A stretch of 42,877 nucleotides of DNA from a virus (taxonomy: Duplodnaviria; Heunggongvirae; Uroviricota; Caudoviricetes). This document shows positions 3,001 through 6,000 of this stretch, one piece after another. The first letter of the stretch is position 1. Every line of letters starts with the position of its first letter. The DNA lies in IMG/VR virus record IMGVR_UViG_2671181012_000022; one strand, 5' to 3'. The position numbers were made by a program.

Positions 3001-6000
3001 TGTTTGCGCATTGATGCTGAGATACGCTTCCAGTCTTCGCGATCCTTGTCGATAACCTCATTTTTAGCCCAGCGATGGATGGTACCGTCAATGTTTCCTG
3101 CATCCACATCCCCGGGCCAGAGGGCGCAGGCCAGTTCTTTATCCAGTGTTTTCCATGTCTGCCTGTATTCGCGACGAATGGCTGTAGTGACAGGGTTGAT
3201 TTTTGCTGCTGAGTTTTCGGTGAGGTGCTGGTTAACTCTGGTGCGTGCGAGATCAACAACAGACGTATATTTTCCGGTTTCCTTGCGTTCACCTTCGCGA
3301 CGTTTTTTCCAGATGCGCATCTCTGCCTGAATTTCTGGCCATTTGGCACCAGGCTTACATTTATGCTTAACCCACCCGATGGCATGCAGTTTAATCTCCG
3401 GATACATGGCGTTAACTTCTGGCATTTTCATCAACGCTTCAACGATATGTCCGTCGAAGGTTGCCATGTCTTCCTGCAACAATTCCTGTGCGCTAATCAC
3501 CATATCAACGGTGATGTTTTCACATGTGTCGAACTTAACCATGACAGCGTTCTGTACTTCAGGGGACAGCTTGTCAAAAGTGACGTTCATCGGATCTGAT
3601 TCAGTCTCAACCGGGACAAAGGAAGCAGACTCCTCATCCCAGCGGTTTTCCAGCATATATTCAGCATCCCAGGAGTCGAGGGCTGGGCGGTGTGTACCGG
3701 GTTTATCCTCACAGACAAGAAATTTATAAGCGCAGTCCTGAGCAGCCGGATAATGTTCAAGGAATTGCCAGTGAAATTTTGCGCGGGCGCGACGTTCATC
3801 ACCGGCTTCAATGGCAGTGGCCACAGCAACAGCGCCCTCGTTTTTTATTGCCTGTTCGTCAGGAATGGCGGCGCAAATAAATATTTTACTCATTGTGTTT
3901 AAACCTCATTACAGATTTCAGGGTGAACGAATCCCTGCCATTGCTGGCATTTTTAATCCGTTGGTATGGCGTTAATATGGCTGGTGGGTTATCCAGCCGG
4001 TGTTTCGTTATTCAGGTACAGCGATACTTTGTTTAACGGGAGGCATTCACCAGAAATTTTTTGCTCGTCTCTTGCCTGGAGGCAGGATTCTTTACTGGCA
4101 TAAATTCCGGTAATCACATTCTGTGGCTCACCTGTTATAAGAAAAACCGTCATCATCAGTGCAAACGCTGAACTCACTGCTGCCCTCCGAAAATGCCAAG
4201 TTCAAGAAGGGCAATTCTGGAGAGTATGGAATTATCATTGAGAAGATAAGGCTCATATTTTCTCATCCTGATGGCGTCCTCAGTAAACTCCCGGTTACTG
4301 AGCAGAATACCAATATTAAAACACCCTTCAGACGTATTAACGTTTGGTAGTGACGTTTCCATTATCGCGTCCTCAACAATGAATTTTGTGATGTGGTGCC
4401 TGGTGCCTCCAGGTGACGTTAACCAGTTAACAATTAACGCCGGATTGTTAGTTGATGTCTGTTACGCCAGTAAAAGACCGCTTGTTTTAACTGTTCCGCG
4501 TGCGCTTAGCCGCATTCACCGCATCACAAAATACACTTTAAAAATGGCGGATATCCATTTCCGCCGAATCACCAGAAAAGTGATAACAGAGGTTGTTGTG
4601 GCGGTGTTGTCACTCAGGTGTATGGTCAACCTGACAACCCGGTGCATTTTCTGGAGCAATGGAGGAAGCCCCAGCCATACTTACCGCCGCGCCATTTCGC
4701 GGATTGCCACAACCGGAAGCGCACGATCGAATTACATTTAACGACGACATATACAGAGAGACTAACTTCGCCGAGCGCTTTCGTGTTGTGTGCCTGCTTT
4801 TAACCACGTCAGGCGAGGTGGACCTGTTATTCCCCAACAACAAGGATCTTGTTAATCTGGATATCCCCAACAACAATAAGAGTATTGAATGTGATCGCTG
4901 AATTAACGGCAGCAATGACGGCTATTCGTGAAACCGCTCAGATTGCAAAACTAATGAACGAGGCAAAAACTCAAGCTGAAGTAAATGCGGCTATTGGTGA
5001 ACTGAACTCAAAGCTTGCATCTATTCAGCACGAATGCGTGTCTCTCGTTGAGCTGGTGAGCACTTATCAAGAAATAAATGCTTCTCTCAAAGCTAAAATT
5101 GCAGAATTTGAAAACTTTGAGGCTCAGACGGAAGGTTATATCCTTAACCAACTTGAGTCGGGAACTTTTGTGTACTCGAAGGAGGTAACCGTGAACGGCG
5201 GCAGCATAATCATGCATCTTTGTCCAAAATGTTTTGGACAAAAGATAGTATCGATACTTCAACCATTCCCGGTTAGAGAATATGAGTTTTTTCATAAAAG
5301 CAGGTGCCTCTACTGTGAAAATCAGTTTCTTATGAATAAAAATCCGGATTATGTATCGCCTCCATCTATTGAGGAGTTGGCCAGAAAACTGAACGGCAAT
5401 CTGTAGATTGTTACTGTTATGGATATCCAGATTGTTAAAGAGCATGCCGGATGCTTGCTTGTGTCCGGCGCGTGTGCACCAGTTCTCCCCGTGGAGGATT
5501 CCTTAACTACCAGACTTCATTAGTCAGAGTTTCTTGCTAACCAGCGACGCGCGCCAGCTTCGGTTTTAAACTTTTTACTTTTGGTATACGTCATCGCGGT
5601 AAACGTGCCGTCCTGGTTAGGGAACACACCGCATACCAGAGATTCGTTGTTGCCAAGATTGAGCGTATCCATGTTGACCTCATTTCCCCTTAACGCCGGG
5701 GTAGCGGAACTAAAAACCTGCTGCGCTGTTATACAAAGTGTTCCCGCCGTCATGTTCATACGCCTCGGGCTGGCTACTTAACCCCTGACCACTGCCTGGT
5801 AACTCGAAGTATTGCCTGGCGTTCTGTGGGGCGGGGTGGGTTGGTTGACATAATGTACTTGTTGTTCATTAATGTAAAGTACTTTTAGTACATTTTTGTG
5901 AGGGATAAAATATCAGGAGGGGATGAGAGGAGCATAAACCCGGAGGGAAGCTACCGGATTTATGCAGATTCAGGAGGCTTTTTGTTTTTTCTTTCGCGCT

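What the first reader, a model, noticed from the sequence alone, without database searches (positions are those of the whole stretch)
3989..4600. Intact DicF/DicB/YdfD division-inhibition module
The minus strand carries a DicF-like sRNA candidate (UUUCUGGUGA seed plus terminator), then dicB-like and ydfD-like genes with overlapping stop/start. In E. coli K-12 this module is a cryptic remnant; here it sits in an apparently complete prophage next to an intact exonuclease and integrase. The sRNA is shorter than K-12 DicF as I remember it.
Basis: partly seen in the sequence, partly recalled or inferred. Interest (0 to 1): 0.5.

Follow-up and report, generated by a model that had tools for sequence, protein, structure and literature searches.

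The report
Short DicF-locus variant beside intact dicB
This is the ordinary dicB/ydfD early-operon module of an E. coli lambdoid prophage, but the small RNA in front of it is a common, unannotated short variant of DicF that has lost the stretch which silences the cell-division gene ftsZ.

Summary
The features are on the minus strand as described. A 39-nt element (4578..4540) starts with UUUCUGGUGA and ends in a hairpin plus U-tract. It is followed by dicB (4362..4174, Pfam DicB 115.7 bits) and a DUF1482/ydfD-like gene (4177..3989, 55.4 bits), which overlap by GTGA. The flanks align with the K-12 Qin dicF-dicB region at 87% column identity, so this is the DicF locus.

It is not an intact DicF. 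Only the first 10 nt, the GGCGG/CCGCC stem base and the U-tail are kept. The 27-nt apical segment is replaced by 10 unrelated nt. The Rfam DicF model finds nothing here even at E<=10, while K-12 scores 76.7 bits. The published pairing regions for ftsZ, pykA and manX lie in the replaced segment. The xylR seed (nt 6-18) is cut to nt 6-10.

This short allele is in 442 of 5,426 complete E. coli genomes, including O157:H7 EDL933 and 86-24. It is in no deposited phage record. I found no description of it in the held literature.

Most likely it still acts as the operon-internal terminator and processing site before dicB, so any division inhibition would rest on DicB alone. A retargeted mini-sRNA is possible but untested. 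The module is known and only the allele is a new variant. Interest is modest.

The parts
4540..4578 (-). Short DicF-locus allele. It has a 13-nt free 5' end (UUUCUGGUGAUUC), a 6-bp hairpin (GGCGGA/UCCGCC) with an 8-nt loop, then A + U5.
   Evidence: Sequence; fold at -11.1 kcal/mol; terminator-like site 4565..4546; orthologous alignment to K-12 dicF; no Rfam DicF hit.
4568..4584 (-). Precursor 5' hairpin AUCACU/GGUGAU. Its loop (UUUCU) holds the position that corresponds to the K-12 DicF 5' end, an RNase E cleavage site.
   Evidence: Folds of the window and K-12 precursors both place the DicF 5' end in a hairpin loop. The C-G pair at alignment columns 47/55 forms only in the 20 short-allele sequences. 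RNase E processing itself is from the literature (PMC9438474).
4352..4547 (-). Structured dicF-dicB spacer, a sub-threshold relative of STnc100. It is bracketed by a 19-bp long-range stem (4535..4517 with 4398..4380) that ends about 18 nt before the dicB start codon. This stem is the likely RNase III site.
   Evidence: Rfam STnc100 31.4 bits in the window and 34.1 bits in K-12, against a gathering score of 47; inverted repeat I3, 19 nt, 89% complementary; 97% of cells paired across 51 sequences but no covariation; alignment with the true STnc100 copies.
4174..4362 (-). dicB homologue, 62 aa (cell division inhibitor DicB family).
   Evidence: Pfam PF05358 115.7 bits, full length; 58% identity to K-12 DicB; RefSeq annotation 'cell division inhibition protein DicB' in the identical locus.
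3989..4177 (-). ydfD-like DUF1482 gene, 62 aa, GTG start that overlaps the dicB stop (GTGA).
   Evidence: Pfam PF07358 55.4 bits; 45% identity to K-12 YdfD; PHROG 1092.
5520..5672 (-). ydfA-like DUF1391 gene, the first gene of the leftward early operon.
   Evidence: Pfam PF07151 100.7 bits; RefSeq CDS at the matching position.
5850..5878 (-). Candidate early-left promoter (TTTACA-17-CATTAT) between the repressor gene and ydfA.
   Evidence: Consensus scan, 9 of 12 matches. The number of such sites in the region is not above what shuffles give. Its position is analogous to dicBp/PL. This is an inference only.
5970..6389 (-). CI/DicA-type HTH repressor gene, upstream on the same strand.
   Evidence: Pfam HTH_3; PHROG transcriptional regulator families.
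1422..3893 (-). 823-aa exonuclease gene downstream of ydfD. In K-12 Qin the equivalent gene is truncated.
   Evidence: Complete ORF; Pfam Rv2179c-like 3'-5' exonuclease domain, 201.8 bits; K-12 counterpart is the pseudogene ydfE.

Best explanation
The region is the distal part of the repressor-controlled early-left (dicB-type) operon of an E. coli lambdoid prophage. The closest genome match has this prophage integrated next to ompW.

On derepression, transcription from a promoter just downstream of the repressor gene would run through ydfA and the conserved leader into the DicF locus. There a short hairpin plus U-tract (4565..4540) would stop part of the transcripts. Read-through RNA would carry dicB and the translationally coupled ydfD-like gene.

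The conserved 5' hairpin, and the 19-bp stem that brackets the spacer, would allow the RNase E and RNase III processing known for K-12 DicF. The released RNA would be only about 36-39 nt.

This short allele keeps the first 10 nt of DicF and the base of its terminator stem. The apical 27 nt are replaced. That segment carries the antisense sequences for ftsZ, pykA and manX. The xylR seed is also truncated. So the element most likely works as the operon's internal attenuator and processing site, not as an ftsZ-silencing RNA. Any division inhibition by this module would come from DicB.

Shown: the sequence anatomy, the homology, the loss of the known pairing segments, and the allele's prevalence. 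Inferred: transcription, termination, processing, and the lack of ftsZ control.
For: - Locus homology: the flanks are 87% identical to K-12 over 430 nt, and the only large difference is the core of the sRNA.
- Rfam DicF model: K-12 scores 76.7 bits and a third allele 43.5 bits. The window gives no hit at E<=10.
- Published genetics: the 3' region of DicF pairs with the ftsZ ribosome binding site. The DicF23 mutation affects both ftsZ and pykA. The 5' end pairs with xylR (PMC5069750). The manX site is G145-C162 (PMC5861419).
- My duplex scans reproduce those sites for K-12 DicF: xylR with nt 6-18 (-20.4), pykA with nt 26-43 (-22.5), manX with nt 36-53 (-32.0), and ftsZ -29..0 with nt 24-53 (-27.9).
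- The short allele has none of these. Its best ftsZ duplex is -13.4 kcal/mol, weaker than about 90% of its own shuffles.
- Terminator-like hairpin.
- The processing hairpin and the 19-bp stem are retained.
- dicB and ydfD are intact.
- The allele is widespread, so it is not a one-off lesion: 442 of 5,426 complete E. coli genomes and 46 IMG/VR loci. Its variation is confined to the loop, the base before the U-tract and the stem: two wobble-compatible stem changes and one singleton that breaks a pair.
Against: - There are no expression data for this allele. Termination, processing and the absence of ftsZ repression are all inferred.
- Energy statistics for sRNA-mRNA duplexes discriminate poorly. 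Even the K-12 DicF-ftsZ duplex is only z = -0.8 against shuffles.
- The retained 13-nt single-stranded 5' end is invariant in all 51 short-allele copies tallied (IMG/VR loci plus the window and its E. coli matches). It could be a working seed.
- The hairpin is a weak terminator: 6 bp, an 8-nt loop, and an A between the stem and the U5 run.
Confidence: 0.6

Rival explanations
1. The short allele is a working trans-acting mini-sRNA of about 36-39 nt with changed target specificity. It would keep only the 5' seed UUUCUGGUGAUUC plus an Hfq-type terminator. It would regulate a subset of DicF targets or new ones, for example pchA in EHEC, while having shed the toxic ftsZ/pykA/manX-repressing core.
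For: - The free 5' 13 nt are invariant in all 51 short-allele copies tallied, while the loop and tail vary.
- The layout (free seed, G+C-rich terminator hairpin, U-tract) matches the class of unusually short prophage sRNAs of 51-60 nt found by Hfq-CRAC in O157 (PMC4104026 supplement).
- UUUCUGGU is perfectly complementary to ACCAGAAA in the pchA coding sequence (sequence printed). DicF is reported to pair within the pchA coding sequence (PMC7769764).
- The allele is frequent in STEC/O157 genomes.
Against: - No transcript, Hfq-binding or target data exist for it.
- The published DicF-pchA site could not be checked, because the paper is not held.
- An 8-nt match in a 350-nt window is only weakly unexpected, roughly a few percent by my own estimate.
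- Seed invariance is not significant given the low overall diversity.
- The seed is also part of the precursor hairpin, which could explain its conservation.
- The U-tract has only 5 U.
Confidence: 0.25
2. One reading: an intact DicF that, like K-12 DicF, blocks division by antisense pairing with ftsZ mRNA.
For: It has the same locus, the same first 10 nt, the same stem base and the same U-tail as DicF.
Against: - The ftsZ-complementary segment (K-12 nt 24-53) is absent.
- There is no Rfam DicF hit.
- The best predicted ftsZ duplex is -13.4 kcal/mol, against -27.9 for K-12, and it forms no continuous helix over the Shine-Dalgarno sequence.
Confidence: 0.05
3. A longer transcript from this locus acts as an AgvB-like sponge for the core sRNA GcvB. 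The upstream hairpin loop would display CACAACAAC, the complement of GUUGUUGUG in the GcvB R1 seed.
For: - CACAACAAC lies at 4600..4592, 14-22 nt upstream of the DicF 5' end.
- The CACAACA core of the motif travels with the short allele in 42 of 51 copies tallied, 40 of them with the full CACAACAAC, and with none of 117 longer-allele copies.
- Rfam AgvB gives a weak alignment over 4540-4609.
Against: - The AgvB hit is 15.2 bits against a gathering score of 56, with E = 2.5, which is chance level.
- The GcvB sequence was recalled from memory, not tested.
- Nine short-allele loci lack the motif.
- There is no evidence for a 5'-extended stable RNA.
Confidence: 0.04
4. The element is a decaying remnant of DicF with no function of its own, carried along with dicB.
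For: It has lost all validated pairing regions. No deposited phage genome carries it.
Against: - It is not a simple deletion. The core is replaced and a clean hairpin plus U-tract is kept.
- It is found in 8% of complete genomes with very little decay, and the stem changes are mostly wobble-compatible.
- It recombines among dicB and spacer variants as a discrete cassette.
Confidence: 0.06

Closest known systems
dicBF operon of the K-12 Qin cryptic prophage (ydfABC-dicF-dicB-ydfD)
   Same: The order is the same: repressor, ydfA, leader, DicF locus, structured spacer, dicB, ydfD, exonuclease, integrase. The flanks are 87% identical. dicB and ydfD overlap by 4 nt in both.
   Different: - ydfB and ydfC are replaced by an opposite-strand gene of unknown function (4849-5406).
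- The DicF core is replaced: 39 nt against 58 nt when both are counted through the U5 tail, with no ftsZ, pykA or manX complementarity.
- DicB is 58% and YdfD 45% identical to the K-12 proteins.
- The exonuclease and integrase are intact here and are pseudogenes in K-12.
Multi-copy DicF of EHEC O157:H7 (four copies reported)
   Same: The same short allele, with 2 mismatches in 64 nt, is present in O157:H7 EDL933 and 86-24, in a prophage with the same early-operon layout.
   Different: The four Rfam-annotated EDL933 copies are 52-56 nt long (PMC5331693). The short allele gives no Rfam hit, so it is most likely an extra, unannotated locus and not one of the four. I could not confirm this in the original paper.
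Third DicF-locus allele (75 nt anchor to anchor; for example L009, L112)
   Same: It has the same flanks and the same stem base. Its apical segment is also replaced.
   Different: It keeps DicF nt 1-20, so it keeps the xylR seed. It still scores 43.5 bits with the Rfam DicF model. The short allele keeps only nt 1-10 and scores nothing.
Short prophage-encoded Hfq sRNAs of EHEC (AgvB, AsxR, EcOnc03)
   Same: These are prophage-borne, very short (51-60 nt), and have a variable part joined to a constant terminator hairpin (PMC4104026 supplement).
   Different: There is no significant sequence or structure match (AgvB 15.2 bits against a gathering score of 56). Those sRNAs are primary transcripts, whereas DicF is processed from an operon RNA. 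No expression evidence exists here.

Membership tests
DicF RNA (Rfam RF00039) | Covariance-model score at or above the gathering score of 48 bits | tested here: not met
   No DicF hit in window 4350-4750 even at E<=10. The K-12 control scores 76.7 bits and the third allele 43.5 bits.
DicF RNA (Rfam RF00039) | Position in the dicB operon directly upstream of dicB, with homologous flanks | tested here: met
   Pairwise alignment with K-12 and a 51-sequence alignment.
DicF RNA (Rfam RF00039) | 3'/apical segment complementary to the ftsZ ribosome binding site, the basis of division inhibition | tested here: not met
   K-12 nt 24-53 pair with ftsZ -29..0 (-27.9 kcal/mol). The short allele lacks this segment. 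Its best duplex is -13.4 kcal/mol, weaker than about 90% of its shuffles. Genetics in PMC5069750.
DicF RNA (Rfam RF00039) | 5' seed pairing with xylR (nt 6-18), and apical pairing with pykA and manX | tested here: not met
   Only nt 1-10 are retained. The K-12 sites are reproduced (xylR -20.4, pykA -22.5, manX -32.0), and the short allele pairs at none of them.
DicF RNA (Rfam RF00039) | Rho-independent terminator hairpin with a U-tract at the 3' end | tested here: met
   Terminator-like site at 4565..4546 plus ATTTTT. MFE -11.1 kcal/mol, z = -1.56.
DicF RNA (Rfam RF00039) | Biogenesis by RNase E (5' end) and RNase III (alternative 3' end) from the operon transcript | tested here: inconclusive
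   The 5' hairpin and the 19-bp downstream stem are retained. 96.9% of cells are paired against 35-51% in slid controls, but there is no covariation. Cleavage itself cannot be tested here.
DicF RNA (Rfam RF00039) | Hfq-dependent stable small transcript | not testable with these tools
   None of the orphan Hfq-CRAC peaks I checked in O157 Sakai (EcOnc10-12, EcOnc33) fell at a dicB locus. I did not find where the short allele lies in Sakai, or whether Sakai carries it.
DicB (Pfam PF05358) | Full-length match above the gathering score of 27 bits, in a protein of about 62 aa | tested here: met
   115.7 bits over residues 1-62 of 62. 58% identity to K-12 DicB without gaps.
DicB (Pfam PF05358) | MinC-dependent inhibition of cell division | not testable with these tools
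   Inferred from family membership only.
YdfD / DUF1482 (Pfam PF07358) | Match above the gathering score of 25 bits, and a gene coupled to the dicB stop codon | tested here: met
   55.4 bits. 45% identity to K-12 YdfD. GTGA overlap seen in the sequence.
YdfD / DUF1482 (Pfam PF07358) | Lysis activity on expression | not testable with these tools
   RefSeq names the K-12 protein 'lysis protein YdfD'.
STnc100 (Rfam RF02076), for the dicF-dicB spacer | Score at or above the gathering score of 47 bits | tested here: not met
   31.4 bits in the window and 34.1 bits in K-12. Shared motifs and one compensatory pair change with the true copies.
AgvB anti-sRNA (Rfam RF02702) | Score at or above the gathering score of 56 bits | tested here: not met
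   15.2 bits, E = 2.5.

The most novel reading that the evidence does not exclude
The short allele is a natural separation-of-function relative of DicF. It would be a very small (about 36-39 nt) Hfq-type RNA, unannotated and invisible to Rfam, carried by about 8% of complete E. coli genomes, with many STEC/O157 strains among the listed hits. It would have shed the toxic ftsZ/pykA/manX-repressing core but still act in trans through its invariant 5' seed, for example on pchA. Alternatively it could act through the linked CACAACAAC loop as a GcvB sponge. O157:H7 strains would then carry a fifth, functionally distinct dicF-like regulator.
Probability: 0.2. Interest if true: 0.55.

Novelty: new variant of a known kind. 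Interest (0 to 1): 0.3.

Why it matters
DicF is the textbook prophage sRNA that blocks cell division, and in EHEC its copy number is linked to virulence control. Annotation pipelines and published copy counts rely on the Rfam model or on near-identical sequence, and both miss this allele.

If the short form is expressed, it would be a natural experiment that separates DicF's 5' seed from its ftsZ/pykA/manX-targeting core. It would also show that the apical part of an sRNA terminator hairpin can be swapped as a cassette between prophages. If it is only a terminator, then many 'dicBF' loci, including one in O157:H7, inhibit division through DicB alone.

Either way the finding is incremental. The module itself is well known.

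Tried and rejected
1. Full-length RNAduplex scoring of each sRNA against 120-170 nt target windows did not discriminate. Shuffled sRNAs scored almost as well, because unlimited internal loops are allowed. I replaced it with 18x20-nt local windows and a 43-nt ftsZ window.
2. I looked for expression evidence in the O157 Sakai Hfq-CRAC table. EcOnc10, 11 and 12 turned out to lie in late regions near the Rz and terminase genes, and EcOnc33 near the esterase gene. Sakai Sp10 is Rac-like, and Sp4 carries a long allele. I did not find the short allele's position in Sakai, or whether Sakai carries it, so no conclusion is possible.
3. The papers that would settle which EHEC copies were counted, and where DicF pairs on pchA, are not held. 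These are Melson & Kendall 2019, Murashko & Lin-Chao 2017 and Faubladier & Bouche 1994.
4. Three scans with the pattern TTTCTGGTGA...TTTTAAAGTG got no answer from the server: two of viral contigs and one of genome contigs.
5. A scan for even shorter alleles (gap 8-37) returned only an unrelated A+T-rich phage sequence.
6. A covariation test of the proposed helices gave none, because the sequences are too similar.
7. PADLOC found no defence-system match for DicB, YdfD or the opposite-strand ORF.
8. A search for sites in the window complementary to the 5' seed gave 4 matches within 2 mismatches. One is the element's own complement, and 5 of 100 shuffles gave as many, so this is not clearly above chance.
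Full report
**What is there**

On the minus strand the window carries, from high to low coordinates:
- a CI/DicA-type repressor gene (6389..5970)
- a ydfA-like DUF1391 gene (5672..5520)
- a conserved non-coding leader
- a 39-nt element, UUUCUGGUGAUUCGGCGGAAAUGGAUAUCCGCCAUUUUU (4578..4540)
- a structured spacer
- dicB (4362..4174)
- a ydfD-like gene (4177..3989)
- an 823-aa exonuclease gene (3893..1422), an excisionase gene and an integrase gene

DicB matches Pfam PF05358 over its full length (115.7 bits) and is 58% identical to K-12 DicB. The next protein matches DUF1482 (55.4 bits) and is 45% identical to K-12 YdfD. Its GTG start overlaps the dicB stop as GTGA.

The 751 nt around the finding are 100% identical to a prophage of E. 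coli FHI_NMBU_11 that lies next to ompW.

**Is the small element DicF?**

By position, yes. About 430 nt around it align with the K-12 Qin ydfC-dicF-dicB region at 87% column identity, and the flanks are almost unchanged.

By content, only in part:
- The first 10 nt (UUUCUGGUGA), the stem base GGCGG/CCGCC and the U-tail are kept.
- K-12's 27-nt apical segment UAUCAGUUUUACUCCGUGACUGCUCUG is replaced by the unrelated AAAUGGAUAU.
- Two further nucleotides are missing after position 10.

The Rfam DicF model scores K-12 at 76.7 bits. It scores a third allele found in IMG/VR at 43.5 bits. It gives no hit in the window even at E<=10 in a 401-nt search.

**Consequence for function**

Published genetics give the pairing regions:
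- ftsZ pairing lies in the 3' region of DicF, and xylR pairing lies at the 5' end (PMC5069750).
- The DicF23 mutation affects both ftsZ and pykA.
- The manX site is G145-C162 within the coding sequence (PMC5861419).

My local duplex scans reproduce these sites for K-12 DicF. They are xylR with nt 6-18 (-20.4 kcal/mol), pykA with nt 26-43 (-22.5) and manX with nt 36-53 (-32.0). ftsZ -29..0 pairs with nt 24-53 (-27.9).

The short allele has none of them. Its best ftsZ duplex is -13.4 kcal/mol, which is weaker than about 90% of its own shuffles. These energies are crude, because even the K-12 duplex is not significant against shuffles. The main argument is simply that the nucleotides which do the pairing are absent. 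Calling the sRNA part of the module 'division-inhibiting' is therefore not supported. DicB remains the only candidate inhibitor.

**What the element probably still does**

It is a clean hairpin followed by a U-tract, like the DicF terminator that ends part of the dicB-operon transcripts in K-12 (PMC9438474).

In the precursor, the retained 5' sequence sits in a hairpin, AUCACU/GGUGAU. Its loop holds the position that corresponds to the K-12 RNase E-generated 5' end. The A-to-C change specific to the short haplotype adds a C-G pair to that hairpin.

Downstream, a 19-bp long-range stem (4535..4517 with 4398..4380) brackets the spacer and ends just before the dicB ribosome binding site. In K-12 an alternative 72-nt DicF, 19 nt longer than the 53-nt form, is produced by RNase III.

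Across 51 distinct sequences, 96.9% of the proposed pairs can form, against 35-51% in slid controls. There is no covariation, because the sequences are too similar.

I therefore commit to an attenuator and processing-site role, at about 0.6. A retargeted mini-sRNA is the main rival, at about 0.25. Its 13-nt free 5' end is invariant in all 51 copies tallied. UUUCUGGU is also perfectly complementary to ACCAGAAA in the pchA coding sequence (sequence), and DicF is reported to pair within that coding sequence. However, I could not check the published site, and an 8-nt match is weak evidence.

**How common it is, and whether it is known**

| Allele | Complete E. coli genomes (of 5,426) | Places |
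|---|---|---|
| Short | 442 | 528 |
| K-12-type long | 3,973 | 6,701 |

- The genomes with the short allele include O157:H7 EDL933 and 86-24.
- In IMG/VR the locus has three length classes in the copies tallied: long, short (46 IMG/VR loci; 51 copies once the window and its E. coli matches are added; 7 sequence variants) and a 74/75-nt class with yet another apical sequence (25 copies).
- The classes recombine with different dicB and spacer variants.
- ompW-integrated prophage records that match this 751-nt region at 86% identity carry the long allele.
- No record in the phage collection holds the short allele.

In EDL933 the four Rfam-annotated DicF copies are 52-56 nt (PMC5331693). The 'four copies' of the EHEC literature are therefore most likely long alleles, and the short one an uncounted extra locus. 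I could not verify this in the original paper.

Full-text searches found no description of a short or variant DicF allele. Balasubramanian et al. compared only dicF sequences more than 99% identical.

**Prophage state**

- The module in an otherwise phage-like context is not new. dicBF is described in many prophages, and isolated phages carry annotated DicF and dicB.
- The window holds replication, Q, lysis, head and part of the tail modules, but it ends inside tail gene L.
- RefSeq flags several pseudogenes in the closest genome, including the portal gene. In the window, the portal region reads as two coupled ORFs.
- 'Apparently complete' is therefore only partly supported.

**Verdict**

The dicB/ydfD module is real, intact and ordinary. 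The DicF locus carries a widespread, apparently undescribed short allele that lacks every validated DicF pairing region. This is a new variant of a known kind and of modest interest, mainly as a natural separation-of-function allele and as a gap in annotation.

Noticed in passing
window 4352-4547 (-); compare 18048-18254 (+) and 18534-18744 (+): The dicF-dicB spacer is a sub-threshold relative of the prophage sRNA family STnc100 (31.4 bits here, 34.1 bits in K-12, gathering score 47). It shares GGUGAAU and CACCnGGAGGCACCnGGCAC with two full-scoring STnc100 copies in the late region of the same window. The CCUGG/CCAGG hairpin shows a U-A to G-C compensatory change. The same block also matches P1-like phages P7 and D6 in the phage collection.
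   Followed up: partly
window 4592-4600 (-): CACAACAAC lies 14-22 nt upstream of the DicF 5' end, in the stretch just 5' of the precursor hairpin. From memory it is the complement of GUUGUUGUG in the GcvB R1 seed. Its CACAACA core is linked to the short allele in 42 of 51 copies tallied, 40 of them with the full CACAACAAC, and is absent from 117 longer-allele copies. Rfam AgvB gives only a chance-level hit (15.2 bits).
   Followed up: partly
window 4849-5406 (+), with inverted repeats 4854-4879 / 5408-5433: An opposite-strand ORF of 185 aa takes the place of ydfB and ydfC. It matches PHROG 1244 (unknown function), with no Pfam and no PADLOC match. It has CxxC...CxxC motifs near the C-terminus. 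It is bracketed by 26-nt inverted repeats that are 81% complementary, so it looks like an inserted cassette or moron.
   Followed up: partly
window 4044-4056 (-): A second sense-strand copy of the DicF 5' motif (UUUCUGGUGAAUG) lies inside the ydfD-like coding sequence. It is probably coincidental.
   Followed up: no
L009, L112 and about 20 other IMG/VR loci: A third DicF-locus allele (75 nt anchor to anchor) keeps DicF nt 1-20 but has a different apical segment (CAUCUGUUUGCCCAUGAACUGAUGU). It scores 43.5 bits, below the Rfam gathering score. It too lacks a good duplex with the ftsZ ribosome binding site.
   Followed up: partly
window 12145-12320 (+) and the adjacent hokD annotated in the closest genome: A hok/sok type I toxin-antitoxin locus lies in the prophage (Rfam sok 110 bits; RefSeq hokD in the matching genome).
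   Followed up: no
window 16677-16923 (+): Three Rfam tRNA hits lie downstream of the Q antiterminator gene. RefSeq names the matching genes Ile, Arg and Arg, as in Stx-type lambdoid phages. No stx genes appear in the RefSeq annotation of the matching prophage. An esterase gene and three DNA methyltransferase genes lie nearby.
   Followed up: no
window 41244-42398 (+): A 384-aa ORF among the tail genes corresponds to a gene annotated as porin OmpC in the closest genome. It would be a porin paralogue carried as prophage cargo.
   Followed up: no
window 31930-34478 (+); window between about 34.7 and 41.2 kb: RefSeq calls the portal gene of the closest genome frameshifted, but the window shows two ORFs joined by a 4-nt overlap (454 and 395 aa). 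The ompC-like ORF sits about 198 nt from its expected position relative to NZ_CP045712. So either the window is not identical to that genome throughout, or it has an indel there.
   Followed up: no
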